DNA of 64,000 nt. It comes from an uncultured Clostridia bacterium (GTDB lineage Bacteria > Bacillota > Clostridia > TANB77 > CAG-465). The stretch's first letter is position 1. Each line of letters opens with the position of its first letter. Location: contig CALXJI010000005.1 of assembly GCA_944388585.1 (NCBI GenBank), forward strand, positions 96,012 through 160,011, given 5' to 3'. The translations under genes and the position numbers were made by a program. The notes under the pieces are model-generated. The model saw only the letters and a program-made list of their open reading frames with translations, was not told the origin of the DNA and did not search any database. Of the stretch, positions 3,286 through 20,485 are shown piece after piece.

Positions 3286-4247
3286 TTATAATTTTAAGAG
3301 AAATTTTTCAAACACATATTTTAAATAATCTGTTACATTTGATTTTGATACATTGTTATTTGCTACTATATTACTTTCACCTATTTTTTCATTAGTTGCT
3401 TTATCAAAAATCTCAACTTTTCCAACTACTTGATCTATTTCTATTGGACTACTTAATCCTTCATTATATGTAATCACTTGCTCTGTTTCTATATTTTGAC
3501 CTTTATTTAATAATGAATAAACGTCATTTTCTATTCTTGTTTCTAGTTTATCTTTTACATTTTTACTTACTGTAATTTGATCTAAAATTGTATTTGATGA
3601 ACATATTTTTTTGGTTTCATAAGTAGAGAAGCCATAATCAAGTAATGTTTTTGTTTCTTCTGTTCTAATATCTGATGTTGGAGCTTTCATAACAACACTA
3701 ATAAACGTAGTATCGCCTCTTGTAGCGGTAGCAACTAAATTATATAATGCATTCGATGTATATCCAGTTTTTAATCCTGTTGCTCCATCATAATATCTTA
3801 TAAGCTTATTAGTACTACTAAGTCCAAATTCTCCATTTCTTAAAGTGTCCATCCAAATTGATGTATAATTTAAAATATTAGGATGTTTGGTTATTAATTC
3901 CCTAGACATTATTGCTATATCTTTTGCACTAGTATAATGCCCTTCTTCATCTATTCCATGTGAATTCATAAAATGTGTATTTTCCATACCTAACTCTTCC
4001 GCCTTAGCATTCATCATATTTACAAAATTTTCTTCACTTCCACCAATAAGTTCTGCCATAGCTACTGTTACATCATTTGCTGATACTACACATATAGCTT
4101 TTAGTGCATCATCTATTGTTATTTGTTCTCCTTCTTTAAACCAAATTTGCGAACCTCCCATTTCAGATGCTTTTTTACTACATGTTACAGTATCATCATA
4201 TGAAAGTCCACCATAATCTATTTGCTCCATTATTAAAAGCAATGTCA
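3286..4247 (-). CDS. D-alanyl-D-alanine carboxypeptidase (PBP5/Dac family), 3' part of a gene interrupted by the inserted element
   Basis: Begins mid-domain at (M)KVMTLLLIMEQID and contains the SxN motif (SAN) and the KTG motif (LKTGYT). The N-terminal signal peptide and SxxK motif are found 16 kb away at 20593..20862. Confidence 0.8.
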
Positions 4248-5926
4248 TAACCTTCATTATCGCCAGTCAAAAGACACTTCTTTGGACTATTTTTTTGGGC
4301 TTTTAAAAAGCCCAATTTAAAGTTAATCTCATCTATTTCATCAAATTTAAAATAAATTTGTAGTTTTACATTTTTTCTATTATTATCTATTTTTGTAACT
4401 ATTATCTTATCTACTAATAGTTCTAAATATAAATCTAAGTTTTCTCTTTTACTTAAATCTAACTCATCAACTATAACTTTTTTTAAATTTTCTATATACT
4501 TATCAAAGTTTTTCATTTCTTCTTTTTTTTGCTCGTTTTCTTTAACTTTTTCTTTTAAGTTATTTAATTCTATATTTAATTTGTCATTTCTTTCTTTAAA
4601 CTCTTCATCATCTATATAACCATTTAAGTTAAGATTTAATAACTTTTCTTTTTTATTGCTCACATTTTGCATCTTTTTTTCTAAATTAGTATATTCATTA
4701 TTAATCTTTAAGTCTAAATTATTTTTTTGATATATATTTAATAATTTATTTATTATTTTATTTTTATTCATTTCAAATTTAGAAAATACACTTTTAATAA
4801 TTTCATATAGTTCTTCTTCTAACAAAATTGGACTTGCACAAACTTTTACTCCACCATTATCATATCTAGCACATACCCAAACTGGTCTACATTTTCTTTT
4901 TGGTCCAGCTGACCTAATAAAATTGGTTTGGTGTTCACTACATATTAATTTTCCACTAAATCCATATCTATTAGAAAATTTACTTTTATCTGGATTATTT
5001 TCATAAAATTTTTTACTTCTTTTTTCAAAAATCTCATTAGCTTTATTCCAAAGTTCTTCACTCACAATTGGTGGCACTATACTCTCATCATCACATTTTT
5101 TTACTATCCAATCTTTTCTATCATTTCTTACTTGCTTGGAACTCCTATAATCTAATTTAGAAGTAGTATTTGAACAATAATATCCTTTATATTTAGGATT
5201 AACCAAACATCTTTTTAAATTTGTTGGACTAATACGAGTATTATTACTAGTCTTATATCCATTTTCATATAATATGTGTGATATTTTTTCAAATCCATAC
5301 TTGCCAGTAGCATATAGTTCAAATAGTTTTCTTACAACTTCTGCTTCTTTTTCATCTATAACAAGTTTTCCTTTATCTTTTACATATCCACGAATATTAT
5401 TGTTCCCCAATACTCTATTTTTTTCAACAGACCTTTTAAGACCAAACCTTACTCTTTCTGATAGCTTTCTTACTTCATCTTGTGCTATACTTGCCATTAT
5501 TGCAAGTCTTAATTCTGAGTCTGGTAGTATTGTATTTATGTTATCTGTCTCGAAGTACACTCCCACATTTCTTTCTAAAAGTTCTCTAGTATATTTTATA
5601 CTATCTAAAGTATCACGAGCAAATCTACTTATTTCTTTCGTAAGAATTAAATCAAATTTATCTTTTTTTGAGTCTTCAATCATATTTAAAAAATCTTCTC
5701 TTTTTTTTGTACTAGTTCCACTTATTCCCTCATCAACATATCCTTCAATATATGTCCAATTCGAAACACTTTTGATTTTATTTTCATAGTAAAACTTTTG
5801 ATTTTCTAAAGAATTTAGTTGATTTTCTTTTTCAGACGATACTCTTGCATAAAAAGTAACTCTTAAATTCAAGTCATATATGCTTTTACCTGACATCAAT
5901 TCTTTTCTTAGATTTGCAAAGCTCAT
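4196..5926 (-). CDS. Large serine recombinase (resolvase catalytic domain + recombinase domain + zinc ribbon + coiled coil)
   Basis: N-terminal YARVSSEKENQ catalytic serine motif; DEGISGTS; recombinase domain; Cys-rich zinc ribbon; K/E-rich coiled coil. The last ~16 codons and the stop lie in host dac-derived DNA beyond the GTCAT core. Confidence 0.9.
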   Translation of the reverse strand: MSFANLRKELMSGKSIYDLNLRVTFYARVSSEKENQLNSLENQKFYYENKIKSVSNWTYIEGYVDEGISGTSTKKREDFLNMIEDSKKDKFDLILTKEISRFARDTLDSIKYTRELLERNVGVYFETDNINTILPDSELRLAIMASIAQDEVRKLSERVRFGLKRSVEKNRVLGNNNIRGYVKDKGKLVIDEKEAEVVRKLFELYATGKYGFEKISHILYENGYKTSNNTRISPTNLKRCLVNPKYKGYYCSNTTSKLDYRSSKQVRNDRKDWIVKKCDDESIVPPIVSEELWNKANEIFEKRSKKFYENNPDKSKFSNRYGFSGKLICSEHQTNFIRSAGPKRKCRPVWVCARYDNGGVKVCASPILLEEELYEIIKSVFSKFEMNKNKIINKLLNIYQKNNLDLKINNEYTNLEKKMQNVSNKKEKLLNLNLNGYIDDEEFKERNDKLNIELNNLKEKVKENEQKKEEMKNFDKYIENLKKVIVDELDLSKRENLDLYLELLVDKIIVTKIDNNRKNVKLQIYFKFDEIDEINFKLGFLKAQKNSPKKCLLTGDNEGYDIAFNNGANRLWWTFI

Positions 5927-5949
5927 ATTAATTTTCCTCCAACTTTTGT

Positions 5950-6120
5950 ATAAATTTAACTACTTTTTGAAACTAGACTAAGTTCCTCTAGTATTTTATT
6001 ATTAGCATAAATATACATTTCGTAGGTTATATAATTTTTTTCATATAATCTTCTGTTAATTTTTTCTTCAATTTTCAACTCGTTCTTTTCATCTGTTAAT
6101 ATATTTAATTTATCTTTCAA
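5950..6120 (-). CDS. Small ORF (56 aa, TTG start, RBS AGGAGTGG) immediately upstream of and co-oriented with the recombinase gene; candidate regulator or directionality factor
   Basis: Own translation gives MKDKLNILTDEKNELKIEEKINRRLYEKNYITYEMYIYANNKILEELSLVSKSS. It ends 21 nt before the recombinase RBS GGAGG. Below the ORF-track size cutoff. Confidence 0.3.
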
Positions 6121-6214
6121 TATAACCACTCCTAGTTAAATCTTATTAAAGTTTATTATTTTTATTCTAATATAAAAATTATATTATATATATCCATATA
6201 TAGTTTTTTATTTT

Positions 6215-6305
6215 TGTACATTTTGTACATTGGTCTTATAAGTATTGGTACATAAACATTTGTTGTATTACATACATTTGTATCAATGTACAAATAAAAT
6301 GTACA
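6215..6305. repeat. Cluster of TGTACA hexamer repeats (iterons or operators) directly 3' of the primase-helicase gene
   Basis: TGTACA or GTACA at 6215, 6224, 6247, 6287 and 6300, plus CATACA and GTATCA variants. The reverse-complement arrangement tgtacaaaatgtaca recurs at 20428-20441. Confidence 0.5.
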
Positions 6306-9131
6306 TTAATCACAATTAGGTGGATTAGTTCCATAAGGTTGTAATTCTAAATATGGAACTTTATCTTTTTTTACTGCCCATACTATTTCCGTTTTATCTC
6401 TTGAAGTAGGACCTGGCATTTTCTTTCTAATAGTTGCTCTATCACTACCAACTTTTAAATATCCCTCATCTGATAAATGTTTTTGAAGTCCAGTTTTATT
6501 TATAGGAAATTTTATACCTTGTTGTGCATAAAACTTAGATACTTCATTTAGTACAGTTTCTGGGAAAAAATAATAATAGTTATTGTACTCATCTTTTGTT
6601 TCATCTACAAAACCTATAAGAGTTTTATTTTTATTATCTGTTAAATAAGACTCTTGCCAGTTTCTAACTATATATATTTTTCCGGTATTTTCAAGTTGAC
6701 TTATAGCATTAAAAAACATACTTATAGGTTTATTATCTTGTATTTTTAAAGTTTGCTCATTTGCTACAAAATTTAAAATATCCCAACTTTCTTTAAGTAG
6801 TTTCTCTTTATCTTGTTCGCTTATTATCTCATAAGATATTAGAAAGCTAATAAATAATTCATAAGATATTTGTAAGAAACATATTATTTCCGCGGTTCTC
6901 CCATGTAATAAATTATTTGTAATATCATTTCTATATTTTTCAAATTTATCCTTAGCATTATTTTTAATCTTATCAATGTTTGCTATTAGAACTTTAATAT
7001 ATTGTTTCATTGCATAAGATAATTTGTCTTTATTTCTTTGAAGTATAGTTAGTTTATCTAAATCTATACTATCTTTTTTTAAATCAATAATAAAACATCT
7101 AGCTAAACGGCTTTCTGATACCTCTGGAAATGATTCGCCAGTTACTAAACATAGACCTCGTGCTTTATAAGATTTTCTTAAAGTAACATCTACATTTAAT
7201 CTACCTCTAGCACTTCTGTCGCCATAGATAGCTATAACTTTTTCAAGAGTGTTTTTCATCTTTTTAGCCTCATTTGTTTCTGTACTAGGGTAGTAATCAT
7301 CTAATACTACCAAAGTGTCTGCTAATAAGTTACTTCTAACCTCAATACTATTTATTGTGTCTTTGCAACTGCATACAAAGCTATCTTTATCAAATCTACC
7401 AAAATGACAATTTAATAAAGCCGATAATGAACTCTTTCTACTACCACTTACTCCTACAACTGCAATTAAAAAATCTGGTACAATTCCTAAATCATCTAAT
7501 GATGACACTAAAGGAGCTAGATATGTAAAAGCAAATAATGGTAAGGTTATCTTTTTATCTGCTACATCTAAAATGCTATATGATAGTTGCAAACACTCTT
7601 TCAAATCATATTCTTGATTTGTAAATTCATATCTAACTAAACTATCATCAAGATTAACTTTTATAGTATCATCTCCACCAATATTTCCATTGTTGTACAA
7701 ATATACATACTTATCATTTTGTTTTATAAAACCAGTATGTGTATATACAACTTCTTTCTGCATATTTTTAGATACTATTTGTGTAACTTCACGAAGTTTA
7801 TCCTTATTACTTACTCCTGCATTTACTATTGGCGACATATCCCAAGTATTGTTTATTAACCATTTCATAGAGGTAAAATCTTCAATTTTTACTTCAATTT
7901 CATCTAATACATCACCATTACTCAAAACTGCTTTAATTTTATATACTGCTGATTTCTCTCCATTTCCATTATCATATATAATTACTTTACTTATAATTGG
8001 AACAAAATTAGATATTTTCTCTTTCTTTTCATATAGGCCATCTTCTGCAAAGACATAATTACTATTTTCTAGTAGTTCAATGTCCTTTTGATAATCATTA
8101 GGAATACTAGAGTTAGCTTTCTTTTTAACTTCTTTTTCTTTTACTTTTATTACATCTAGCTTATAAAAAATATCACTTTCATAAGCTATTGCTTTACCAC
8201 CAAAAAACATACTTGCCAAATTTGTTGGCTTAGAATCAGGATAGAATATACTTAGCTTGTCTAACAAATAATTAATAAAGCCTTTTGCTATTTCATAATC
8301 TGTTATTACTTCATTTAGTATATATACTAACCTCATCTTATGTTGTTTCTCGCTATGACTAAAACTATAATATGCAAATGTAGGTAATAGATTTATTTGT
8401 TTACAATAGTCAATAATCTTCTCTATTGTAATATGTCTTTTATCATCAGTAGTAAAATTTACTTTCTTTCCATTTTCTTCAATAGCATTATCTATATCTA
8501 TCATATATAGTTGTTGTCCTTTAAAATTTTCTTTAGCATTACCTTTAATACCTGATGGTATAGTTGTTTTTCCTAAAACAATGTTTTGTTTTATTTCATC
8601 TAGTGTATAGCCCTTAAATTGATTTTCATTAATCCTATTTTTTATACCTCCAACTTCATAACCTTGAGGCTTTGTAGAAAATTCAACTTCATCAAACATA
8701 CAAACTATTTTGTCTATTTTTTCTGCCACACTTACTTTAATAGCATTCTTAGATTTTGAATTATTTTGATTGGACTTCCTTTTAGATGTTGATTTACTAT
8801 ATGTAATATTATCATCTATTTGAAAATCTTTTTTAATAATATCAATAGCTTGTTCTTTAGAAACATTTTTATATCTTGCAACAAAATCTACAATATTTTT
8901 ACCAATAAAATTCTTATCTCCAAAATCACTTATATACTTATCTGATACACTAAAAGATGGGTTGGAATCCTTTCTAAATGGACTACTGTAGGCGATACTA
9001 TCGCCTCTAGCTATACCTTCTCCTAAATAATGTTCTACAACTTCTTTATTATCTAGAATACTACACAATTCTTCTATACTCACTTTTCTACCTCCTTTTA
9101 TTAAAAAGGAAACACACTTGATTTTTCGCAA
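6306..9131 (-). CDS. Replication protein: primase-polymerase (degenerate CHC2 zinc-finger-like N-terminus, DxD prim-pol motif) fused to a P-loop NTPase/helicase-like domain
   Basis: SSPFRKDSNPSFSV resembles the DnaG CHC2 motif CPFHxExTPSFxV but with Cys and His replaced. LYMIDIDNA prim-pol signature. Variant P-loop VVGVSGSRKSS. Size and architecture match Pri-Rep proteins of integrative elements. Confidence 0.55.
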   Translation of the reverse strand: MRKIKCVSFLIKGGRKVSIEELCSILDNKEVVEHYLGEGIARGDSIAYSSPFRKDSNPSFSVSDKYISDFGDKNFIGKNIVDFVARYKNVSKEQAIDIIKKDFQIDDNITYSKSTSKRKSNQNNSKSKNAIKVSVAEKIDKIVCMFDEVEFSTKPQGYEVGGIKNRINENQFKGYTLDEIKQNIVLGKTTIPSGIKGNAKENFKGQQLYMIDIDNAIEENGKKVNFTTDDKRHITIEKIIDYCKQINLLPTFAYYSFSHSEKQHKMRLVYILNEVITDYEIAKGFINYLLDKLSIFYPDSKPTNLASMFFGGKAIAYESDIFYKLDVIKVKEKEVKKKANSSIPNDYQKDIELLENSNYVFAEDGLYEKKEKISNFVPIISKVIIYDNGNGEKSAVYKIKAVLSNGDVLDEIEVKIEDFTSMKWLINNTWDMSPIVNAGVSNKDKLREVTQIVSKNMQKEVVYTHTGFIKQNDKYVYLYNNGNIGGDDTIKVNLDDSLVRYEFTNQEYDLKECLQLSYSILDVADKKITLPLFAFTYLAPLVSSLDDLGIVPDFLIAVVGVSGSRKSSLSALLNCHFGRFDKDSFVCSCKDTINSIEVRSNLLADTLVVLDDYYPSTETNEAKKMKNTLEKVIAIYGDRSARGRLNVDVTLRKSYKARGLCLVTGESFPEVSESRLARCFIIDLKKDSIDLDKLTILQRNKDKLSYAMKQYIKVLIANIDKIKNNAKDKFEKYRNDITNNLLHGRTAEIICFLQISYELFISFLISYEIISEQDKEKLLKESWDILNFVANEQTLKIQDNKPISMFFNAISQLENTGKIYIVRNWQESYLTDNKNKTLIGFVDETKDEYNNYYYFFPETVLNEVSKFYAQQGIKFPINKTGLQKHLSDEGYLKVGSDRATIRKKMPGPTSRDKTEIVWAVKKDKVPYLELQPYGTNPPNCD

Positions 9132-9284
9132 ATCTTATCATATAATATAATAGAAATGTAAAATAAAAGTGCATTTCCATAATTTTTTGAGTTGAAAGAA
9201 TTTTTTAGGGGCCTAATCTATAAAATTCTTTCTATTTTTTATATTATCAAACAAAGGTTTGTTTGTACATATTTCAAGTGATTT

Positions 9285-9881
9285 TTAAACAACAAAGTAA
9301 TCTTCACATTGACTAACATCTATTTCTCCCTCTTCAAGTTTGGCTACTTCTTGAAGTGTTGAAACATCTCCCACAAAATAGAAAATGTTATCTTCAAGTT
9401 GATTAAACTCACTTGAAGGTTGATATATAGTTGATTCTTGGGGAGTTGTAAGCTCCCAAAAACCAACTTTATATGAGTCATCAACTTTTACTCTACCTAT
9501 TTCTCTAAAAGAGTTGTATACCCTACGCATTCCACATCTATTGGAATACTGTAAAACTTCGCCATTCTTTTTAAAATATCCCAAGGAACTAACAATAGTT
9601 CCAGGAGTTATAGAATTGTCGCTATATCCATAGACTATGACTATTTGTCCATTAGCGAACTTCAATTTTAGTCTTGGAAGCTCGTTAGGGCCCATATCTT
9701 TTTTCTCTAGGAATACAGCAATATTTTCTGTAACTCTTACATATCCCTCATCAGTTTTTACTAATAATAGTACATCTTGATTTTGTTGTACTGCTTCAGC
9801 TTTTATTTGCTGAAATCTTTCTATTATAGGCTTATACATGCCTATCACTCCTTTCTTTTTTACAATATACACTTTTTTCAA
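9285..9881 (-). CDS. Hypothetical protein (198 aa)
   Basis: Long ORF with coding-like composition; no recognisable motif. Confidence 0.45.
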   Translation of the reverse strand: MKKVYIVKKKGVIGMYKPIIERFQQIKAEAVQQNQDVLLLVKTDEGYVRVTENIAVFLEKKDMGPNELPRLKLKFANGQIVIVYGYSDNSITPGTIVSSLGYFKKNGEVLQYSNRCGMRRVYNSFREIGRVKVDDSYKVGFWELTTPQESTIYQPSSEFNQLEDNIFYFVGDVSTLQEVAKLEEGEIDVSQCEDYFVV

Positions 9882-10098
9882 TGTGCGACTTACAAGTAGC
9901 TTAAATTGCTATTGTAACTTTTATTATTTCGTAGTATAATATTTATATATTTTTACTACGCATATCACGTGATAAAACAATTATAAGCGACAAAAACCTT
10001 GAAGTCAATGCATTTTCTTTGAATTTGTTAAAGTGTAGGAGTAGTAAAAAATGTTGAAAAAAGTGAATTTTTTTACTACGCAATTTAGGAGGAAAAAG

Positions 10099-11262
10099 AT
10101 GTATATAAATATAATAGATAACAAAACCTATACAAATGATTTAATTATAAGCGAAGTGAAATATGGTACAGCACTTATTGATTTTTTAAATACAGATTTA
10201 ACAGACTATATTACAAAAATCACAGAATTTTCTGGAAAGTTTATTTATGAAAATGAAAATGAAATAAAACCTTATAATGTTGATTATAAAAATAATGATA
10301 TTACTAGTTACCCAAACTGTTTAGATGCATATAGTTACTTATGTAAATATGTTAGATTTATAAGAACAATTAAAAGCAGTTGCAAATATGTTAATCTGCA
10401 TATTAATGAACTAGAAGAAAATTTAAAGGAAGTTGCAAAATATGATATAGATGAATTTAATAAAAGTATTACTAATACTAGTCCTAATATGAACGAAACT
10501 ATACATAGCTATGTTAAATATCTGATAGAATATTTAATACTTTGTCAAAAAGCATTGAAGAAAGCAGTTTATTATATACTTGATGTCAATAACACAAATC
10601 TAAATGATTTATCATTAAACAAAAGACTAGCTTACTTCCAATGTAAAAATGATTTAAGTAACTTACATATTATATTAACATATATGACTGAACAAGAATT
10701 ACTAGATATGATATTTATAAATAATAAAATTAATGTTTCTGATAATACTTTTGTTTTTAAAGAAAAAGATAACCTTATAGGACTCTCAGATAAGCAATTA
10801 CTAAACAGAATAAAAAGCTCTAATGTATCTATTAGTTATAATAAATATTTTAGAACTATAAAAGAACTAGGCATTTTTGAAATTGAACAAATGATTTTGA
10901 ATAAAACACAAGTAAAAAGATGTGAATTTTGTAATAATTACTTTATTTCTAAAGACAAAAAGAAAAAAACTTGTAGTACTATTTGTGGAAAAAAAGTCAA
11001 TTATCAAAAGACTAAGCAAGATGAACTACAAAACTTATATAACAGAACTTTGGAAAGTATGCAAAAAGGTATGAAAAATAATAAAGATAAATACGAACCT
11101 GTAAAAGAATATTTTAAATCGGTATATAATAGTGTAAAGGAAATGAATAAAAATTCTAATGAAATTAAAAAATTTAAAAAAATGTGTGTAGATATAAAAG
11201 CAAAAACACCTAAATATAATTATAGTGTTGATTATTTAAAAAATCTATGGGAAAAGGAATAG
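10099..11262 (+). CDS. Hypothetical protein with C-terminal CxxC...CxxC zinc ribbon (start moved to ATG 10099 after AGGAGG)
   Basis: CEFCNNYF...CSTICGKK near the C-terminus. The only long plus-strand gene in this part of the element. Confidence 0.5.
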   Translation: MYINIIDNKTYTNDLIISEVKYGTALIDFLNTDLTDYITKITEFSGKFIYENENEIKPYNVDYKNNDITSYPNCLDAYSYLCKYVRFIRTIKSSCKYVNLHINELEENLKEVAKYDIDEFNKSITNTSPNMNETIHSYVKYLIEYLILCQKALKKAVYYILDVNNTNLNDLSLNKRLAYFQCKNDLSNLHIILTYMTEQELLDMIFINNKINVSDNTFVFKEKDNLIGLSDKQLLNRIKSSNVSISYNKYFRTIKELGIFEIEQMILNKTQVKRCEFCNNYFISKDKKKKTCSTICGKKVNYQKTKQDELQNLYNRTLESMQKGMKNNKDKYEPVKEYFKSVYNSVKEMNKNSNEIKKFKKMCVDIKAKTPKYNYSVDYLKNLWEKE

Positions 11263-11314
11263 TGGTATGACTATTCCTTTTTATACCGTATGTCAAAACT
11301 AATCATTTTTCCAA

Positions 11315-12016
11315 CTAATTTTTTCCACAATTTTTTTGTTCTAAGAGTTGCACAACAATGTCTGGATATGAATTTTGCATTTGAATAATACTACTATATT
11401 GAAGTTCAACCATTTCAAATTTTTTTGAATCTTCTATTTGTTCACCAAATACTAATTTGTATATTTTAATTATAATATTATGAGCATAATCTAATAAAAT
11501 AGGAATTTCATTATATGCAGGTATTTCATCAGCTTTAAAACTTTTTATTCCCAAATCATAAGATTTATCCAAATGTGCAACATTTTTATCCCTCAAGGTT
11601 TTAAGATTATCTAAAGCTTTCATATTTTCCAATTTTTCTAATTCAGATTTAGCATATTTTATTATTTCTGAATTTTTTTTATTAAGAAGTTTATTACATT
11701 GAACACAATTTAACATATAAAATACTGTAATTGAATCATTACTAGAGTCATTATCATAAATTTTAGCTAATTTCATAAATAAAGAGTATTGTAATCCATC
11801 AATGACAGAACAATAGTACTCTTTATATTTAGGCATTTTACTAAAATCCATACACATTCTATCAAATAATAAATATTGTGATTTAGCAAAAAAAATCTCT
11901 CTATATAGCAAGTCAACTCTCTTTTTAAACTTGTCTATTTCACATTTTTGAATTTTTGTTTTAGTTTCTTCCATAATACTCACGCCGAATTTATATATTC
12001 GACAGCCTCCTCTCAT
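11315..12016 (-). CDS. Hypothetical protein with a HEPN-like Rx4-6H motif (RDKNVAH); possible Abi-like cargo
   Basis: Predominantly alpha-helical; RDKNVAHLDK fits the HEPN catalytic motif. Start ambiguous (M1 or the internal MEETKTK). Confidence 0.35.
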   Translation of the reverse strand: MRGGCRIYKFGVSIMEETKTKIQKCEIDKFKKRVDLLYREIFFAKSQYLLFDRMCMDFSKMPKYKEYYCSVIDGLQYSLFMKLAKIYDNDSSNDSITVFYMLNCVQCNKLLNKKNSEIIKYAKSELEKLENMKALDNLKTLRDKNVAHLDKSYDLGIKSFKADEIPAYNEIPILLDYAHNIIIKIYKLVFGEQIEDSKKFEMVELQYSSIIQMQNSYPDIVVQLLEQKNCGKN

Positions 12017-12366
12017 TTTTGGTTATATTTTACCATATTATATTTTTTTGAACAACTTTTTACAAAAATAAAAAATATATATAACAATAGTTAAAAAATA
12101 AGTGTTACTGTTTTTATCTTATAACTAGGTAAGATAGCAACACATTTTTTTATATCATATTTTATTTTTCCAATTGGATTTAAAAATCATACTCAATGTA
12201 TCACATTAGAAATTCTGATTTATTCAAAGAAAATGTGTTATTTGTTTATATTTCAATACTTAGAAAGCATTTTATAAAAATAACTTTTAGTAAATGTAAT
12301 AAAAAATATGTACGAATTACATTCAATGTATTATAATGTATAAAAATTTAAGGAGATGTATGTAGT

Positions 12367-12936
12367 ATGAATTTAGTAGAACCAATTAGAGATTTGAACA
12401 AAATCGAAGAAATGAAAAAAGTATTATTAGAACAAGGAAAAGGCAAAAGAAATTATCTTATTTTCAAAGTAGGTATAAATATTGGTATAAGGGTATCAGA
12501 TATTATAAAGCTTAAAGTAAGTGATATTAGATATGAAAATGGTACTATGCGAGATGACATTACAATTATAGAAAAGAAAACAAATAAAAAGAAGACATTT
12601 AGATTTAATATCGAATTAAAAAAAGAACTAGAAGATTACACTAAACAAATGCAACAATATGAGTATATTTTTAAAAGTAGGAAAGGAGCTAATCAACCTC
12701 TTACGCGCACGCAAGTATATAGATTTCTTAATGATGCAGCAAAAATGGTTGGTATCACTGATAGTATAGGAACTCACACTATGAGAAAGACCTTTGGTTT
12801 CCACAACTATAAAAAATATGCTGATGTTGCTATGTTGCAAACAATATTTAATCATAGTAGCCCTAGTATCACACTTCGATATATAGGTATATCACAAGAT
12901 GAAATCAACAATATGTATGATGACTTTTGCTTATAA
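12367..12936 (+). CDS. Short tyrosine recombinase, FimB/FimE-like (catalytic domain only, 189 aa)
   Basis: KRNYLIFKVGINIGIRVSDIIKLKVSDI parallels FimB ARNYCLTLLCFIHGFRASEICRLRISDI. HxxR box in GTHTMRKTFG. His and Tyr in FNHSSPSITLRY. Confidence 0.8.
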   Translation: MNLVEPIRDLNKIEEMKKVLLEQGKGKRNYLIFKVGINIGIRVSDIIKLKVSDIRYENGTMRDDITIIEKKTNKKKTFRFNIELKKELEDYTKQMQQYEYIFKSRKGANQPLTRTQVYRFLNDAAKMVGITDSIGTHTMRKTFGFHNYKKYADVAMLQTIFNHSSPSITLRYIGISQDEINNMYDDFCL

Positions 12937-12967
12937 GTTAATATAATTTTATATCTTAATAATAAAA
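12930..12967 (+). repeat. 38-bp repeat copy A (cttataagttaatataattttatatcttaataataaaa), followed directly by aaaagtgtctt (12964-12974), which matches the element end-arm motif
   Basis: Near-identical (3 mismatches) to 20232..20269. The 18-bp core taatataatttaatatct also occurs at 17781..17798. Confidence 0.6.
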
Positions 12968-13011
12968 GTGTCTTAAAATATAAATATGAATATCACTTTT
13001 AGACAAATTAG

Positions 13012-13055
13012 TCAAAAAATGAGAGTAGTACCATAGTATTACTCTCATTTATTCT
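13012..13055. terminator. Bidirectional rho-independent terminator between convergent genes
   Basis: aatgagagta - 12-nt loop - tactctcatt, a perfect 10-bp stem flanked by A-run and T-run. Confidence 0.6.
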
Positions 13056-13066
13056 ATGTAATAAGC

Positions 13067-13603
13067 TTAAAAATTTGATGAATTTAAGCGATTTATCACA
13101 TTTTCTTTTTTTATATCTACAACCTCTTTATAAGTAATTCCATCAGCATTAGGTGCAAATCCATAATAAAACTTACTTCCATACAATTTTTTTAGTGTTT
13201 GATTTGTTGTAGTACATTCTACAATATAAATTCCATTTACCTCTTCAATTGTTTTAACTGTAAGTTCATTCTCTCTACACTCTTCTCCTAAATACTGTCT
13301 TGCATGATTCTCTGCCCAATATCTATTTTCTTGTAATGGAGTAGGAAAGAAAATAGGTTGCACAATAAATTTCCAACCACAAAATATAAAAATAATAACT
13401 ATAATTATATAAATAATTAATCCTTTTGTACTTGAATTATTTGTCACATTATTATTATTATTATCTTCTTCAACATTGAGTTTATTTTCAACATTTTGTT
13501 CAACATTACTATTATTTTCTTCATTTTTACTTATAGTTTGTCCACACTTATCACAAAATTTACTATCATCATCAATTTGACTTCCACAATTTTTACAATA
13601 CAT
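13067..13603 (-). CDS. Zinc-ribbon (CxxC...CxxC) membrane-anchored hypothetical protein
   Basis: MYCKNCGSQIDDDSKFCDKCG N-terminus, an Asn-rich linker, one TM helix and a C-terminal globular domain. Confidence 0.5.
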   Translation of the reverse strand: MYCKNCGSQIDDDSKFCDKCGQTISKNEENNSNVEQNVENKLNVEEDNNNNNVTNNSSTKGLIIYIIIVIIFIFCGWKFIVQPIFFPTPLQENRYWAENHARQYLGEECRENELTVKTIEEVNGIYIVECTTTNQTLKKLYGSKFYYGFAPNADGITYKEVVDIKKENVINRLNSSNF

Positions 13604-13620
13604 AACCTTTCAACCCCTTT

Positions 13621-14655
13621 TTAATTTTTATATTCTTTATTTTCAATAAATAAGTCTAATATTCTTTCTAATTCTTCCATTAGATTTAATAAATCACTAA
13701 CTTTATATTCTTCACTTAATTTTATCTTTGCTAAAATCATTGACTCATTAGCTTGTCTTTTATTAAATTTTTCAAACTTTATATTACTTTTATTTGAAAA
13801 ATATTTTTCTATTTTATCTTGTAATTTATTTCTTTCATCTTCATTATATTTTAAATTACCATTTTCTTTATTTTCAAAGCGACCTCTAATTCTTAATTCA
13901 TATTTACTTTTATTTATATTTGTTTCAAGATATAAATAATCTAAGAAGTAATTCTTATCTAATCCTCTTATATACCAAGTATAAAATACACTACCTCTAA
14001 CTCTACCAACACCACATTTATTTATTTCATTTTTTTCACTATGACTACAATATACATTTGGTAATTCATATTGTAGATATTGTTCCATACTAATTTCTTT
14101 CAATGAAAACTTTTTAATATTCTTACACTTATATTCTATCAAACTTAAATAATTGTAATAATCAATGTAAATATCATTTTTTATATGATAATTTTCCATT
14201 ATTTCAAGCATAAACTTTCTATCAATTAATACATCTACATCAATTTGATTTGGTTCATAAAACATCTTATAATATGTAGTTATTATATTTTCTTCCTTTA
14301 TTCCTTTATTAATTAATTTATTTTTATATTTGTTTATTTGATTACTATGTTCTGAAGTTAGTTTCTTATCTTCAATTATAATGTATATTGTTTCATTATT
14401 TTCATTTTCAAAACTTATTAAAACATCTATATTTTTATCTTGTTTTAATATTTTTACATTATTATAATCATTGAACTTTAAATTTCTTTTAGTGTTTTTC
14501 TTATTATACTTTTCTATAATTTTATCTAAAAACTTTTTTGATACTTCATACAATTCTGAATTTTCTTCTTTGTGATTAATCCACTCTACCAACCAACAAA
14601 TAAAAGCATCTTGACTAAGCTCCTTAGTCGCATATTTGAATATGTTATTTTCCAT
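13621..14655 (-). CDS. Hypothetical protein, candidate PD-(D/E)xK nuclease fold
   Basis: NIDVLISF ... IYIIIEDKKLTSEHSNQ gives a D...ExK arrangement. RBS GGAGG at 14662-14668. Confidence 0.35.
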   Translation of the reverse strand: MENNIFKYATKELSQDAFICWLVEWINHKEENSELYEVSKKFLDKIIEKYNKKNTKRNLKFNDYNNVKILKQDKNIDVLISFENENNETIYIIIEDKKLTSEHSNQINKYKNKLINKGIKEENIITTYYKMFYEPNQIDVDVLIDRKFMLEIMENYHIKNDIYIDYYNYLSLIEYKCKNIKKFSLKEISMEQYLQYELPNVYCSHSEKNEINKCGVGRVRGSVFYTWYIRGLDKNYFLDYLYLETNINKSKYELRIRGRFENKENGNLKYNEDERNKLQDKIEKYFSNKSNIKFEKFNKRQANESMILAKIKLSEEYKVSDLLNLMEELERILDLFIENKEYKN

Positions 14656-14675
14656 ATAAAAACCTCCTCATATTA

Positions 14676-14692
14676 TATGACAATATGTCATA
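14676..14692. promoter_or_regulatory. Palindromic operator candidate TATGACA-ata-TGTCATA in the divergent promoter region
   Basis: 7-bp perfect inverted arms between the RBS of 13621..14655 and the XRE gene. Confidence 0.4.
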
Positions 14693-14763
14693 CTAATTAT
14701 ACCAATTTTCAACTTTTTTTACAACCCTTTTATTGTTATAATTTAATAAAAGGAGTAGATAGA

Positions 14764-15132
14764 GTGGATAAAATAAAGAAAAACAAAGAAATTTCACCCA
14801 AAAAGAATTTACAAAAAATTAGGGAAGATAATCATTACTCACAAAGAAAAGTCGCTGAAGATAATAATACTTATCAAGAAGTTATATCTAGGTTAGAGTC
14901 TGGAACTAGGACTTCAAATATTGAGTTTATAATGCAATTAGCTAACTATTTTCATTGCTCTACAGACTATCTTTTAGATTTAACAAATGACCCAACTCCA
15001 ATATCTATTTTATCTTCTAAAAGTGATTTAAGCGAAAAAGAAAAGTATATTTTAAGAGAATATAATTCTTTAAGTGATGATAACAAACTAAGATTAGAAG
15101 GCATATTAATTGCATTAAAAAGCATACAATAG
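14764..15132 (+). CDS. XRE-family helix-turn-helix transcriptional regulator (GTG start after AAGGAG)
   Basis: LQKIREDNHYSQRKVAEDNNTYQEVISRLESGTRTSNIEFIMQLANYFHCSTDYLL is a classic HTH_3. The upstream part of the track ORF overlaps the convergent gene and lacks an RBS. Confidence 0.7.
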   Translation: MDKIKKNKEISPKKNLQKIREDNHYSQRKVAEDNNTYQEVISRLESGTRTSNIEFIMQLANYFHCSTDYLLDLTNDPTPISILSSKSDLSEKEKYILREYNSLSDDNKLRLEGILIALKSIQ

Positions 15133-15249
15133 TGTAATAATACTTTTGTATGCTTCTTTTTTCTCCTTTATATCTTAAATTAACTTTCTACTAATAGATA
15201 TAAATTTATATAACTAAGTATAGAAAGTTCTTCTAAATAAAACCTCATT

Positions 15250-15600
15250 TCAATGGTTATTATTTAATTTTATAAAGTTATCAAAAAATATCTTAAACAC
15301 TTTTTCATTATCTATCTCATAAAAGTAATCTATAAAATCATATTCCTTATTATAACTATCTTTCTTAAATATACCAACAATATTTATAGCGAAAAAACCA
15401 CTATGTGTGTTAAAAAATTCTTTTACTACTTTTTCTTTTATATCTCCAATAATACATAAGAATAGTGGAGGTATATTATAGTTTAAATCTTTAAGTTCAT
15501 CACTATATACAATTTTTACATTATCATTTAAAACTATATCTTTTATTATTTCTTTACCAAATACTCCTAATGGAATTACCACTATATCTTGAATTTTCAT
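15250..15600 (-). CDS. Hypothetical protein (116 aa), 4-bp overlap with the upstream gene
   Basis: ATGA overlap coupling with 15597..15974. Confidence 0.45.
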   Translation of the reverse strand: MKIQDIVVIPLGVFGKEIIKDIVLNDNVKIVYSDELKDLNYNIPPLFLCIIGDIKEKVVKEFFNTHSGFFAINIVGIFKKDSYNKEYDFIDYFYEIDNEKVFKIFFDNFIKLNNNH

Positions 15601-15974
15601 CTCTCCTTTTTTATTTCATAAACAATAAATTTTACATTAAGTACAATACTAATACCCTCTAATATTCTAAATGTTTCATTATTTGTTCTTTCCTTAAATC
15701 TATTATTGTTTTTAATTTTAGATAGGTTAATTATTACTATACTATTATTAAAGTTTTTTAGTTCTTTTATTAAGTTATCTAATTTATATGTAGTAAAATA
15801 TTCAACATTATCTTTACCATAAAATATATCATCATCTTTATATAACAATACTTTTGAAGTAGGTAGGTTAAATTCTTTTCTTATAATATCTACATCTTTC
15901 TTTTCCTTATCAAATATTTCCATTTTATATATACTTTCCTTTTTAATTCCTACATCTAACAAAAATAACCCCAT
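15597..15974 (-). CDS. Hypothetical protein (125 aa)
   Basis: Operon partner downstream of the HTH-WYL-like gene. Confidence 0.45.
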   Translation of the reverse strand: MGLFLLDVGIKKESIYKMEIFDKEKKDVDIIRKEFNLPTSKVLLYKDDDIFYGKDNVEYFTTYKLDNLIKELKNFNNSIVIINLSKIKNNNRFKERTNNETFRILEGISIVLNVKFIVYEIKKER

Positions 15975-16071
15975 AATGAGCCTCCAAACTTATTTATTTA
16001 GAGTATATCATTTTGAAGTTATTTTGTATATGAATTTTATACTATGAATTTTTCGCTGGTCTAAAAATGTA

Positions 16072-16761
16072 TTACTTATTTTTTTCTTCATCTAAAAACT
16101 CACACTCTTCATCTAAAATTTTTATATCTTTCATACTACTTAATAAAATTCCAATATTATTATTGAGTGTATTATTTGTTCCTATAACTATATAATTAAA
16201 AGGTGTAAGTACTTTAAATTTCCTATACACAATATATTGTGGAGAGTATATAATATTCTTTCCATTATGTATAAATTGTATCTTTTTCTTTTCTTCTATT
16301 GCTTGTGAAACTATTTCTAAACTATTTACTAATTCCCAATTCTTTGTTTTTTGTTCTTTCATTTTTGCTATATTTGATTTTAGTTTTTCTCTATCAAATA
16401 TATTAATTTGTTTTTCTAATTTATTTACCAAAAGATTTGATGTTTCTTCATTTATATCATTAGCTAACTTTATTTGATTTATAATCATAATAATTTCTCC
16501 TAATGTGAAGTCTATATCTATATTTTTAATATAATAATAACCTTTGCGATTATCATTATATGTAGATATATCATAACCAAACTTTTCTATAAGTAAGTTT
16601 ATATTTCTTCTTATAGTTCTACTATCTATATTTACATCATAATCTTTCTTTATCAATTCTTTTATATCATTACAACTTAATATGTGTTCATCATCACTAT
16701 ATTTTTTTAGTGTATTCAACACATATAGTATATTTCCTTTATTTTCATTTCCTTTTTCCAA
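16072..16761 (-). CDS. Putative transcriptional regulator, N-terminal HTH (HTH_11-like) plus C-terminal WYL-like domain (BrxR/CapW-like architecture)
   Basis: ILYVLNTLKKYSDDEHILSCNDIKELIKKDYDVNIDSRTIRRNINLLIEKFGYDI fits the DeoR/HTH_11 pattern. C-terminal IQFIHNGKNIIYSPQYIVYRKFKVLTPFNYIVIG is WYL-like. Confidence 0.4.
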   Translation of the reverse strand: MEKGNENKGNILYVLNTLKKYSDDEHILSCNDIKELIKKDYDVNIDSRTIRRNINLLIEKFGYDISTYNDNRKGYYYIKNIDIDFTLGEIIMIINQIKLANDINEETSNLLVNKLEKQINIFDREKLKSNIAKMKEQKTKNWELVNSLEIVSQAIEEKKKIQFIHNGKNIIYSPQYIVYRKFKVLTPFNYIVIGTNNTLNNNIGILLSSMKDIKILDEECEFLDEEKNK

Positions 16762-16827
16762 TTAAACCACCTTTCTATATTATACAAAATTAGTTTGTAA
16801 ATCACAAGTAACAAGAGTAACACTTAT

Positions 16828-17061
16828 TTATAACATACCTTTTCTATTTAAAGTTCTTACAATTTCACTTCCTAAACCTGTTCTTAAAGTTTTAAATATA
16901 GAATTAAAATATATACTCTCTTTTCTATATTTGGTATAGATATAGTCATTACAATTACTCTTATGAGTTTCAATATATAGTTTTATTCTCTTTTGAATTT
17001 CACTATTTTGTGGAATATTACTTAGTATTATTTCTACAATATCTAAATCATCTTCTCTCAT
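16828..17061 (-). CDS. Hypothetical protein (77 aa)
   Basis: 4-bp overlap with the upstream ORF. Confidence 0.4.
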   Translation of the reverse strand: MREDDLDIVEIILSNIPQNSEIQKRIKLYIETHKSNCNDYIYTKYRKESIYFNSIFKTLRTGLGSEIVRTLNRKGML

Positions 17062-17387
17062 AGTAGTCTCCTTTTTAAATCAAATCTTTCCATATACTTC
17101 TTTATTTTTTCTTCACTTAAAGATATAGTCTCTCCATTTTCTTGACCTACCACTAAAAAATCTCCAACTATAATATCTCCAAATTCATATAAAACTAAAT
17201 TAGGAGATAGACTTAATAATTTACCCTCATCATTTATAATAATATCTACATCATCTTCTAACTCTACAATATCTATTAGACCACCTACATACTTTTGTAG
17301 AGTAGATAGGTTATTTTCTATCTCTATTACTTTTGGTTGTTCAAACACTTTTACTAAAATACATCTTAATTTTTCCTTTTTACTCAT
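17058..17387 (-). CDS. Hypothetical protein (109 aa)
   Basis: RBS-preceded ORF; first gene after a 465-bp repeat-rich intergenic region. Confidence 0.4.
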   Translation of the reverse strand: MSKKEKLRCILVKVFEQPKVIEIENNLSTLQKYVGGLIDIVELEDDVDIIINDEGKLLSLSPNLVLYEFGDIIVGDFLVVGQENGETISLSEEKIKKYMERFDLKRRLL

Positions 17388-18045: not shown

Positions 18046-18121
18046 TGTGTTATCACTCCTTTTATTTAGATATACTTAATATATATCTTTCATATAAATA
18101 TATAGAAAGTGTGATAAAATC

Positions 18122-20441: not shown

Positions 20442-20485
20442 AAAAAATTTATATATTATTTTATATTAATATATATAAAAAAAAG

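What the first reader, a model, noticed from the sequence alone, without database searches (positions are those of the whole stretch)
4196..4300. Attachment-site architecture: 5-bp GTCAT direct repeat, imperfect inverted arms, and a recombinase frame that runs across the junction
Both junctions carry GTCAT (4243-4247; 20600-20604) with no further identity outside it. That is consistent with a short crossover core for a serine recombinase. Just inside the ends lie inverted copies of one motif: caaaagacactt (4269-4280) and aaaagtgtctttt (20583-20595). The recombinase ORF (start 5926) reads through the core; its last 16 codons and stop (…GYDIAFNNGANRLWWTFI*) are supplied by dac-derived DNA. After excision and circularisation the same frame would continue into the element's right end (…GYDLLKDTFDFERRKNRRNDQKTVFYTVYVYVKF*), changing the C-terminus by about 18 residues. 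So the integrated and excised forms would make different recombinase isoforms.
Basis: seen in the sequence. Interest (0 to 1): 0.55.

Follow-up and report, generated by a model that had tools for sequence, protein, structure and literature searches.

The report
Recombinase gene split by its own integration
A 16-kb mobile element sits inside a cell-wall (dac) gene of a gut Clostridium, and its serine recombinase gene straddles the attachment site, so integration swaps the enzyme's last ~35 residues for host-encoded ones, a feature conserved across a family of elements that interrupt sporulation genes.

Summary
A dac (Peptidase_S11) gene is split by a 16,356-bp element that carries a large serine recombinase (LSR) at one edge. 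GTCAT is at both junctions (left copy 4244-4248, not 4243-4247). The inverted arms are real and conserved in four homologous elements.

GTCAT is not the core. Three lines of evidence place the crossover at AA on the minus strand (TT at 4253-4254 and 20609-20610):
- Empty-site alleles from conspecific strains.
- A second integration of the same element into another dac allele.
- The symmetry centre of the reconstructed attP in 5 of 5 elements.

The recombinase ORF does cross the junction. Residues 559-576 are out-of-frame dac. In the circle the frame continues for 34 codons to a stop that abuts a conserved hairpin plus U-run. The same architecture recurs in dac-type relatives and in elements inside a SpoVD-like PBP gene, where the circular-form tail has dN/dS of about 0.3-0.5. 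So the gene's native 3' end lies across attP.

Relatives target spoIVA, spoVD-like, sigma-factor and ylmC-like genes, which fits a sporulation gene-intervening element. Different roles for the two isoforms remain inferred.

The parts
3286..4252 (-). 3' part of the dac gene (B' half-site onwards; encodes ..(V)MTLLLIMEQ.. to the stop)
   Evidence: PF00768 profile positions 42-239 plus PBP5_C. Collinear with intact 403-aa alleles P0121-P0168. The joined gene is 99.26% identical to L019.
   Evidence: The base after GAA follows the host allele: G here, A in L012-L017. The symmetry centre falls here.
4244..4248 (+).
4196..5926 (-). Large serine recombinase ORF as it exists in the integrated state (576 aa); residues 559-576 and the stop (4196-4252) are encoded by out-of-frame dac DNA
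   Evidence: Pfam Resolvase, Recombinase and Zn_ribbon_recom. Translation. Tails of homologues P0001-P0006 are also out-of-frame dac.
5956..6129 (-). Conserved small ORF (51-57 aa) immediately upstream of the recombinase; candidate directionality factor or cofactor
   Evidence: Present next to the LSR in all dac-type elements and in L027 and L030. Detected in the same position in 17 of 72 more distant relatives at E<0.01. No Pfam or NCBIfam family.
4253..20608 (-). The inserted element, 16,356 bp (one copy of the crossover dinucleotide counted)
   Evidence: Absent from syntenic empty-site loci L018-L023. Length.
20504..20608 (-). Displaced native 3' end of the recombinase gene: 34 codons (SNDLLKDTFDFERRKNRRNDQKTVFYTVYVYVKF) plus TAG, in frame with codon 558 only after circularisation; the first ~26 nt are the P' half-site
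   Evidence: L001, L005 and L026 have a 35-codon equivalent ending ..INF*. It has decayed in the minimal element L024.
20477..20505 (-). Terminator-like hairpin (9-bp stem, GAAA loop, U8) that starts inside the circular-form stop codon
   Evidence: dG -11.7 kcal/mol, z -4.3, 0 of 200 shuffles fold as well. Conserved with one-sided stem changes in L001, L005 and L026. Not called by the consensus scanner, which requires 3 G-C pairs.
20600..20604 (+). Right GTCAT copy; lies in the element-derived P' half-site
20609..20853 (-). 5' part of dac (start GTG at 20853, ..PASVTK up to the crossover); in the integrated state the frame stops at 20593 (..VMTY*)
   Evidence: PF00768 profile positions 6-45. 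Identical to L019 over the 60 nt that precede the crossover.

Best explanation
Shown by comparison:
- A 16.4-kb integrative element is inserted in the SxxK-motif region of a dac (D-Ala-D-Ala carboxypeptidase) gene of an uncultured, spore-forming gut Clostridium.
- The element was inserted by its own large serine recombinase, with strand exchange at a non-palindromic AA/TT dinucleotide.
- That dinucleotide is the centre of a roughly 52-bp imperfectly palindromic attP.
- attP lies inside the recombinase coding sequence, 34 codons before its natural stop and terminator.
- Integration therefore splits the recombinase gene. The prophage-state enzyme (576 aa) keeps all catalytic and DNA-binding domains but ends in 18 residues read out of frame from dac.
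- Circularisation restores the native 592-aa protein and its terminator, and at the same time rebuilds an intact 403-aa Dac.

Inferred:
- Excision is carried out by the truncated/chimeric enzyme, probably with the conserved 51-57-aa protein encoded just upstream acting as directionality factor.
- Excision probably occurs in the sporulating mother cell, as for skin, SPbeta, gin and yin.
- Integration into a new host is carried out by the full-length enzyme made from the circle.
- The native tail is needed only in the circular/integrative phase. This would explain why it is conserved in mobile-looking elements and decays in minimal, apparently domesticated ones.
For: Gene split and empty sites:
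- Pfam shows the split.
- 48 clusters of intact 403-aa Dac at 91-99% identity exist.
- Empty-site loci L018-L023 have the same neighbouring genes.

Crossover at AA:
- All six intact alleles read GTT-ATGAC, whereas attL reads GTA-ATGAC.
- The window's attR reads GAA|G and L012-L017 (98%-identical LSR, different dac allele) read GAA|A. In each case the base matches the host allele, AAG or AAA.
- Joining at AA gives 1212 nt with no mismatch to L019 within 27 nt of the junction. Joining in GTCAT would add two mismatches exactly at the junction, against a background of 9 in 1212.
- The attP symmetry score peaks at AA in 5 of 5 elements: 16-19 of 26, against 13 or fewer at the other offsets tested. 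The chance of a score of 17 or more is about 7.5e-4 per position.

Split recombinase gene:
- Circular-form tails are 34-35 codons and end in F*, with a conserved hairpin plus U-run directly after, in the window, L001, L005 and L026.
- An independent replicate comes from SpoVD-like-PBP-targeting relatives L092, L064 and L065. Their tails of 33-51 aa are conserved as protein, with dN/dS 0.29-0.47 outside the half-site, and the other two frames are full of stops.
- LSRs at 49-54% identity still enter dac at the same codon and run on into host DNA.

Sporulation context:
- Relatives end inside SpoIVA_C, PBP plus PASTA, sigma region 4 and ylmC-like gene fragments.
- yabP, yqfD and GerA genes lie nearby in conspecific or related loci.

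Small ORF: conserved next to the LSR.

Precedents: an AA centre and a 42-aa RDF in gin (PMC5595907), and the skinCd RDF (PMC5025042).
Against: - No circular junction (attP) sequence was found in viral or JGI metagenome contigs, so excision is not shown directly.
- Whether this dac is the sporulation paralogue (dacB or dacF) could not be decided. NCBIfam gives only generic DacA/DacD-like matches below cut-off, and the promoter inspection was inconclusive.
- The element is present in only some strains and occurs in two dac alleles about 9% apart. This looks like recent mobility rather than an old domesticated switch.
- The tail region is predicted to be disordered, though in a low-confidence model.
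- Integrated tails vary freely in length, 11-18 aa. The tail has decayed in L024 and L089 while the LSR stays intact. The tail could therefore be dispensable.
- The comparative sample for the dac-type tail amounts to only three lineages.
Confidence: 0.72

Rival explanations
1. One reading: GTCAT/ATGAC is the crossover core. All DNA 5' of it on the minus strand at attR is element DNA, and all DNA 5' of it at attL is host DNA.
For: ATGAC is the longest run of identity between attL and attR in the window. In L005 the identity run, AAAAGTTATGACT, includes it.
Against: - In L001 and L024 the identity stops at ATG (ATGGC versus ATGAC or ATGAG), which excludes GA and AC.
- The only fully shared options inside it are AT, which is palindromic and so gives no polarity, and TG.
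- It requires an unobserved AAA-GTA host allele, and it requires the element to differ from its 98% twin at exactly the host-polymorphic base.
- attP symmetry scores at those offsets are at background level, 4-13 of 26.
Confidence: 0.05
2. The read-through is a neutral by-product. attP happens to overlap a dispensable, disordered C-terminal tail, and the two 'isoforms' are functionally equivalent. The conserved sequence on the P' side is conserved as a DNA binding site and as a terminator that insulates the element from dac transcription, not as coding sequence.
For: - Residues 539-576 have pLDDT below 30 and no secondary structure (low-quality model).
- Integrated tails differ in length and sequence.
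- The tail has decayed in L024 and L089 although the LSR is intact.
- The hairpin lies in the right orientation to stop transcripts coming from the dac promoter.
Against: - The open frame persists for 34-35 codons in 26% G+C DNA in separate lineages. From base composition this is expected about 4% of the time per lineage (my estimate).
- The stop codon abuts the hairpin in both lineages, and the length difference between them is a multiple of three.
- In the SpoVD-type class the tail beyond the half-site has dN/dS 0.29-0.47, and the other frames are closed.
- A paper title reports that the extreme C-terminus of the LSR SprA takes part in directionality control (Abe et al. 2021, cited in PMC10747680; the paper was not readable).
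Confidence: 0.3
3. Dead-end insertion: a mobile island has simply knocked out a redundant, non-essential dac paralogue. It is not excised in any programmed way, so there is no developmental role.
For: - Many conspecific strains carry the intact gene.
- The cargo looks like a mobilisable or defence island: primase-like 941-aa protein, AbiU2, excisionase-family HTH, WYL, PDC-S26.
- The sporulation specificity of this dac is unproven.
Against: - Both dac halves are free of frameshifts and stops and are 99.26% identical to an intact allele.
- The same codon is targeted by LSRs down to 49% identity in different hosts.
- Some elements are as small as 3.5 kb and hold little beyond the LSR, the small ORF and two other short genes. 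This is the pattern described for skin-like elements (10.1101/2022.02.25.481979).
- Sister clades target spoIVA, a spoVD-like gene and a sigma-factor gene.
Confidence: 0.2

Closest known systems
skin element / SpoIVCA (B. subtilis) and skinCd / CD1231 + RDF CD1234 (C. difficile)
   Same: - An LSR at the edge of an element that interrupts a sporulation gene.
- Excision rebuilds the ORF.
- att sites have a short shared core flanked by imperfect inverted repeats of about 21-22 bp (PMC5025042).
- Element sizes run from 2.6 to 48 kb with no shared cargo (10.1101/2022.02.25.481979).
   Different: - The target is dac, not sigK.
- Here the LSR ORF runs through the crossover, so its last 34 codons lie at the far end of the element. 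The papers read do not describe this for skin.
- Developmental timing is untested here.
gin element of B. cereus (GirC + 42-aa GirX) in gerE
   Same: - A non-prophage intervening element.
- An LSR plus a tiny directionality factor with no known motif.
- attP (attG) is an imperfect palindrome, with cleavage predicted at an AA dinucleotide at its centre (PMC5595907).
   Different: - Different target and host clade.
- The small ORF here (51-57 aa) is only a candidate.
- No split recombinase gene is reported for gin.
SPbeta SprA/SprB (spsM) and the yin element (yabG, C. botulinum)
   Same: Serine-integrase-mediated reconstitution of mother-cell genes. [quoted passage not shown]
   Different: These are full or defective prophages. 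No swap of the C-terminus on integration is described for them.
Myxophage Mx8 IntP
   Same: attP lies inside the integrase coding sequence. Integration creates a recombinant gene with a new 3' end, and the altered enzyme remains active with modified properties (PMC6070905).
   Different: - Mx8 IntP is, from my own knowledge, a tyrosine integrase, whereas this enzyme is a serine recombinase.
- Its targets are the attB1 and attB2 sites, not a protein-coding gene that gets interrupted.
Archaeal 'suicidal' SSV1/pTN3/pT26-2-type integrases
   Same: The recombination site lies within the integrase's own gene, which is split on integration. The review suggests this acts as a built-in control of directionality (PMC8371274).
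   Different: - Those are tyrosine recombinases.
- The split separates Int(N) from the catalytic Int(C) and inactivates the enzyme.
- The review calls them exclusive to archaea.
- Here only a short C-terminal tail is exchanged, and the enzyme is presumably still active.
Integration-dependent immunity of mycobacteriophages (own knowledge: Broussard et al. 2013, Mol Cell)
   Same: attP lies inside a coding sequence, so integration changes the C-terminus of a phage protein and hence its behaviour.
   Different: The gene affected there is the repressor, and the integrase is a tyrosine enzyme.

Membership tests
Large serine recombinase (serine integrase) | N-terminal resolvase catalytic domain with the R-x-S nucleophile motif | tested here: met
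   PF00239, E 3.5e-28, residues 25-171. YARVSSEKENQ motif at residues 26-36.
Large serine recombinase (serine integrase) | Recombinase domain (PF07508) followed by a zinc-ribbon domain (PF13408) | tested here: met
   PF07508, E 1.1e-19. PF13408 scores 26.9 bits against a cut-off of 25.3, so it passes only just.
Large serine recombinase (serine integrase) | Coiled-coil insertion after the zinc ribbon | tested here: inconclusive
   The AF2 model has long helices at 370-488, but mean pLDDT is 57.
Large serine recombinase (serine integrase) | Short att sites; attP an imperfect palindrome centred on a non-palindromic dinucleotide shared with attB | tested here: met
   An AA centre is supported by allele comparison and by symmetry in 5 of 5 elements. 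This is comparative, not biochemical, evidence.
Large serine recombinase (serine integrase) | Excision requires a separate directionality factor | not testable with these tools
   Only a candidate exists: the conserved 51-57-aa ORF upstream.
Sporulation gene-intervening elements (skin, SPbeta, gin, vfbin, yin type) | Interrupts the coding sequence of a sporulation-specific (usually mother-cell) gene | tested here: inconclusive
   dac is split, but its assignment to dacB or dacF failed. Indirect support: sister LSRs sit in spoIVA, spoVD-like, sigma region 4 and ylmC-like genes.
Sporulation gene-intervening elements (skin, SPbeta, gin, vfbin, yin type) | Precise excision restores an intact ORF | tested here: met
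   The in-silico join gives 1212 nt / 403 aa, 99.26% identical to a natural intact allele. Excision itself was not observed.
Sporulation gene-intervening elements (skin, SPbeta, gin, vfbin, yin type) | [quoted passage not shown] | tested here: met
   This is the layout noted for skin elements.
Sporulation gene-intervening elements (skin, SPbeta, gin, vfbin, yin type) | Excision timed to sporulation in the mother cell | not testable with these tools
   Needs culture work. The host is an uncultured Clostridium MAG lineage.
Self-splitting integrases (Mx8 IntP; archaeal suicidal integrases) | att site located inside the integrase's own ORF, so integration alters the gene | tested here: met
Self-splitting integrases (Mx8 IntP; archaeal suicidal integrases) | Tyrosine recombinase chemistry | tested here: not met
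   The enzyme is a serine recombinase. It works like these systems in gene layout but is not a member.
Self-splitting integrases (Mx8 IntP; archaeal suicidal integrases) | Integration separates or removes the catalytic part (archaeal type) | tested here: not met
   All Pfam domains (residues 25-379) and the structured C-terminal region up to about residue 537 stay intact. Only residues from 559 onward change.

The most novel reading that the evidence does not exclude
A whole family of large serine recombinases in spore-forming Clostridia keeps attP inside its own 3' coding region. Each integration therefore removes a conserved native C-terminal tail and replaces it with host-encoded residues. 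In one clade the replacement is the in-frame region 4.2 of a sigma factor. The swap would work as a built-in record of integration state that biases the enzyme's behaviour: full-length enzyme for integration, tail-less or chimeric enzyme plus the small upstream protein for excision. It would be a bacterial, serine-recombinase counterpart of Mx8 IntP and of the archaeal 'suicidal' integrases.
Probability: 0.25. Interest if true: 0.75.

Novelty: new variant of a known kind. Interest (0 to 1): 0.6.

Why it matters
- It adds dac to the list of genes whose integrity is controlled by an integrative element. In passing it adds spoIVA, a spoVD-like PBP gene and a ylmC-like gene as further candidates. 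I found none of these in the papers I could search.
- It gives a precise, testable att-site model for a new LSR: an AA centre, attP of about 52 bp, and attB inside the conserved SxxK region. That may be useful for recombinase engineering.
- It shows that a serine recombinase gene can be split by its own integration, with the displaced tail kept under purifying selection. Directionality control in LSRs is an active question, and the extreme C-terminus has been implicated for SprA. This family offers natural 'with tail' and 'without tail' enzyme pairs to test that idea directly.
- A practical point for annotation: gene callers report only the chimeric prophage-state protein, so database entries for this family carry host-derived C-termini.

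Tried and rejected
- Genome-contig scan with the LSR alignment gave only four loci. One (L011, uncultured Clostridium sp. MAG) matches residues 1-69 at a contig end. It helped only as a hint to the organism.
- Exact-pattern searches for the reconstructed attP junction, allowing all three candidate crossovers, found nothing in viral contigs or metagenome contigs.
- Viral contigs relatives: L030 is a frameshifted LSR nested in another LSR gene, and L031 is a fragment. Neither gave an unintegrated form.
- tblastn against 50,697 phage records found no relative covering 80% or more of the query. The best hit (MT837325, 7.1 kb) is a chromosomal-looking fragment, not a circle.
- Pfam and NCBIfam found no family for the small upstream ORF.
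- NCBIfam could not tell dacB, dacF and dacA apart. I inspected the dac upstream regions for sigmaE/F/G/K-type promoters by eye, and the result was too ambiguous in this AT-rich DNA to use.
- The consensus terminator scanner missed the conserved hairpin because the stem has only two G-C pairs. I used folding instead.
- An automated search for far-end partners by perfect inverted matches gave mostly chance hits in AT-rich loci. Only L092 was real. The others were recovered by tblastn with the PBP N-fragment.
- The AF2 model of the LSR was built from a 7-sequence alignment and has low confidence (pLDDT 57). I used it only for the statement that the tail is disordered.
- Abe et al. 2021 (SprA extreme C-terminus) is not held. 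Only its title is used.
- I considered and rejected the reading that the inverted arms form an mRNA terminator in the circle. The structure is a 15-bp stem with a 33-nt partly paired interior, dG -19.5 kcal/mol. It lies 25 codons upstream of the conserved stop, so it is better explained as the attP palindrome.
Full report
**What is in the window**

The window has 25.7% G+C. On the minus strand a Peptidase_S11 (dac) gene is in two pieces. The 5' piece ends ..PASVTKVMT-Y* at 20593-20862. The 3' piece begins (MKVMT)LLLIMEQ.. at 3286-4257. They match Pfam PF00768 profile positions 6-45 and 42-239 respectively.

Between the two pieces lie 16.4 kb of foreign-looking genes. The ORF at 4196-5926(-) is a 576-aa large serine recombinase (LSR) with Resolvase, Recombinase and Zn_ribbon_recom domains. 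Other cargo includes:
- a 941-aa protein with a weak primase match,
- an AbiU2 HEPN protein,
- a 189-aa tyrosine-integrase fragment,
- an excisionase-family HTH,
- a WYL-like protein and a PDC-S26-like protein.

**Checking the observation**

- GTCAT is at 20600-20604 as stated. The two arms are at 4268-4279 and 20582-20594, also one base off.
- The arms share an 11-nt perfect inverted match. Between random 60-nt window segments, a match that long occurs with p of about 0.003.
- The 5-mer itself is uninformative, with 70 occurrences in the window.
- The ORF does read through the junction and ends ..GYDIAFNNGANRLWWTFI*.

**The insertion is real and polymorphic**

Searching the in-silico rejoined Dac found 48 clusters of uninterrupted 403-aa proteins at 91-99% identity over full length. 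Contigs that encode three of them (L018-L023) show the same neighbours as the window: a 78-aa HTH gene, a 76-aa ORF, dac, an ABC ATPase and an FtsX permease. They have no element. These are empty sites in conspecific strains.

The only named genome match is an uncultured Clostridium sp. MAG. yabP, yqfD and GerA genes in these and related loci indicate a spore former.

**Where the crossover is**

On the minus strand the two junctions read:
- attL: ..GTTACTAAAGTAATGACCTATTAAAAGACAC..
- attR..GGCGATAATGAAGGTTATGACATTGC..

In register they share AA, GT and ATGAC. Four observations favour AA.

1. All six intact alleles read GTT-ATGAC, never GTA. The closest allele (L019/L020) reads ACTAAGGTTATGACATTGC, which is exactly attL-left up to AA plus attR-right after AA.
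2. Elements whose LSR is 98% identical (P0001; L012-L017) sit in a different dac allele that reads ACTAAAGTTATGACTTTAC. Their attR reads GATAATGAA|AGTTATGACTTTAC. The base after GAA therefore tracks the host allele (A there, G here) and must be host DNA.
3. Joining at AA gives a 1212-nt gene that is 99.26% identical to L019, with no mismatch within 27 nt of the joint. Joining inside GTCAT would add two mismatches at the joint, against a background of 9 in 1212.
4. I reconstructed attP for the five dac-type elements whose two ends are both available: the window, L001, L005, L024 and L026. Their LSRs are 68-72% identical to the window's, and the elements are 3.5-7.2 kb. Reverse-complement symmetry peaks sharply at the AA dinucleotide in all five. 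The scores are 16-19 of 26 there and 13 or fewer at the other offsets tested, which include the GT and ATGAC positions. A score of 17 or more has p of about 7.5e-4 per window position.

Further points:
- In L001 and L024, attL/attR identity ends at ATG, which excludes the GA and AC steps of GTCAT.
- AA/TT is non-palindromic, as polarity requires.
- With AA as the centre, all four half-sites share an inner RGTWAY-like motif: AGTAAT, GGTTAT, AGTAAC and CATTAT (read). This explains GTCAT as similarity between the P' and B' half-sites.
- The gin element offers a close precedent. Its attG is an imperfect palindrome, with cleavage predicted at an AA at its centre (PMC5595907).

On the plus strand the crossover is TT at 4253-4254 and 20609-20610. 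The element is 16,356 bp.

**The recombinase frame**

With this crossover, codon 558 (GAA) is the last element-encoded codon. Residues 559-576 and the stop come from dac read out of frame. After circularisation the frame continues as SNDLLKDTFDFERRKNRRNDQKTVFYTVYVYVKF*, which is 34 codons and gives 592 aa in total.

This is not peculiar to the window:
- P0001-P0006 all end in out-of-frame dac (..SYD.TFNNG.NR..).
- LSRs at 54% and 49% identity (L033, L034) enter dac at the same codon and run on for about 13-19 codons.
- In L001, L005 and L026 the circular frame stays open for 35 codons and ends ..CYINF*.
- In both lineages the stop codon overlaps the foot of a 9-bp hairpin with a GAAA loop and a U-run. 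In the window this is 20477-20505(-), with dG -11.7 kcal/mol, z -4.3 and 0 of 200 shuffles folding as well. In L001 it has one-sided stem changes.
- The distance from crossover to stop differs between the lineages by exactly 3 nt.
- In the smallest element (L024, 3.5 kb) the tail is closed after 20 codons and the hairpin is gone.

**An independent replicate**

A metagenome scan returned 80 relatives at 42-72% identity. In every case where the ORF end is on the contig, the LSR runs to the element edge, next to a host gene fragment. The fragments are:
- SpoIVA_C (21 loci; E 4e-40),
- class-B PBP transpeptidase plus PASTA, SpoVD-like (21 loci),
- sigma-70 region 4, read in frame as the last ~27-30 residues of the LSR (10 loci),
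- dac (2 loci),
- Asn_synthase,
- a Gate (SpmA/B-like) protein.

The abundant relative P0057 ends inside what looks like a ylmC/ymxH-like gene fragment upstream of an rRNA operon. That identification is from the motif only; there is no Pfam hit.

For three SpoVD-type elements with both ends (L092, L064, L065), attP is again a palindrome: TCATTTATTAGAC, 16 nt, GTCTAATAAATGA. The circular-form tail is 33-51 aa and is conserved as protein (..CLINDT.T.TRGI.S.YTKKYDVEY.YNCF.). Outside the half-site its dN/dS is 0.29-0.47. The other two frames are full of stops. In L089 the tail has decayed.

The split recombinase gene is therefore a family trait, and the displaced tail is under purifying selection in some lineages and lost in others.

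**How it most likely works**

Shown by comparison:
- LSR-mediated insertion at AA within the SxxK-coding region of dac.
- attP inside the LSR ORF.
- Integration exchanges the tail and removes the terminator.
- Excision would restore both genes.

Inferred:
- The prophage-state enzyme, which keeps all domains up to about residue 537, performs excision. It probably does so with the conserved 51-57-aa ORF directly upstream (5956-6129).
- That ORF accompanies the LSR in all dac-type elements and in L027 and L030. It is detectable in the same position in 17 of 72 distant relatives. It matches no family, like the 42-aa GirX.
- The target spectrum of the family suggests mother-cell, sporulation-timed excision, as for skin, SPbeta, gin and yin.
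- The full-length enzyme would be made only from the circle and would serve integration. This fits tail decay in minimal elements that may no longer move.
- A role for the tail in directionality is plausible, given the title of Abe et al. 2021 on SprA (seen in reference lists). It is untested here.

**Cautions**

- No circle junction was found in public contigs.
- The dac paralogue type is unresolved.
- The AF2 model is poor, with mean pLDDT 57. It predicts residues 539-576 to be disordered, which is equally compatible with a dispensable tail.
- The element occurs in two dac alleles about 9% apart and is absent from many strains. The 16-kb version looks recently mobile rather than anciently domesticated.

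**Comparison with known systems**

By domain content and att-site logic this is a member of the LSR family. It works like the sporulation gene-intervening elements, but full membership of that class needs developmental data.

The attP-inside-int layout is known for the Mx8 integrase, where integration gives a new 3' end and altered properties (PMC6070905). It is also known for the archaeal 'suicidal' tyrosine integrases, which a review describes as exclusive to archaea (PMC8371274). I found no description of this layout for a serine recombinase. I also found no report of a dac-, spoIVA- or spoVD-interrupting element. The library searched is incomplete, so prior reports cannot be excluded.

**Verdict**

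There are coordinate slips, and the 'core' is misidentified.
The isoform idea is strengthened by conservation, and the GTCAT crossover is rejected.
- Novelty: a new variant of a known kind.
- Interest: 0.6.

Noticed in passing
L041, L071, L093, L095, L096, L102, L103, L107, L108, L111 (3' ends of the LSR ORFs): In ten relatives the LSR ORF ends ..ISL.QIGISQAQVSRLEKNALKNM.K.I*. This is sigma-70 region 4.2 read in frame, so the prophage-state recombinase would be a fusion to the last ~27-30 residues of a sigma factor, presumably sigK in a skin-like element. The Pfam Sigma70_r4 match is weak because the segment is short.
   Followed up: partly
L035-L109 (many; for example L044 11629-11913, L055 3190-3663): About 21 relatives sit directly upstream of the C-terminal fragment of spoIVA (SpoIVA_C, E 4e-40). 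About 21 more sit upstream of the C-terminal half of a class-B PBP with a PASTA domain (SpoVD-like). Single cases lie next to Asn_synthase and Gate (SpmA/B-like) fragments. I did not find any of these reported as element-interrupted genes.
   Followed up: partly
L027 7700-7860 and 8374-13405: P0057 is a widespread LSR, listed in 422 blocks of the collection. It ends inside a fragment resembling a ylmC/ymxH-type sporulation gene (..IIVPGGTNKLMSLFSNTNDIVIPWEKIRCISEDLILVEI*), about 500 nt upstream of a complete rRNA operon. That position explains why many of its contigs break there. The gene was identified by motif only; there is no Pfam hit.
   Followed up: partly
window 20330-20460: The AT-rich non-coding stretch inside the right end of the element has several TGTACA / GTACAAA(A)TGTACAAA-like repeats. 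They are possibly operator sites for an element regulator.
   Followed up: no
window 6306-20120: The element cargo looks like a mobilisable or defence island rather than a prophage. It holds a 941-aa protein with weak primase similarity, AbiU2 (HEPN), a 189-aa tyrosine-integrase C-terminal fragment, a zinc-ribbon protein, a PDC-S26-like protein, a WYL-like protein, DUF3846, an excisionase-family HTH and an HNH_3-containing 524-aa protein. No virion genes were recognised.
   Followed up: partly
L012-L017 versus window 1122-3073: The same element (LSR 98% identical) occurs in hosts whose dac is followed directly by a SAF/ChapFlgA gene cluster. In the window and in L021 an ABC-ATPase/FtsX/375-aa block lies in between. 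So the element is shared between strains or species that differ in local gene content.
   Followed up: no
L030 6001-8822: An IMG/VR contig carries a frameshifted relative of the LSR, with the conserved small ORF upstream. It is inserted into the coding sequence of a second, unrelated LSR gene, making a recombinase nested within a recombinase.
   Followed up: no
L024 289-4083 and L025: This is the smallest dac-type element, 3.5 kb. It holds only a Ham1-like gene, two small ORFs and the LSR. Its displaced LSR tail and terminator have decayed, which may mark a domesticated, excision-only derivative.
   Followed up: partly
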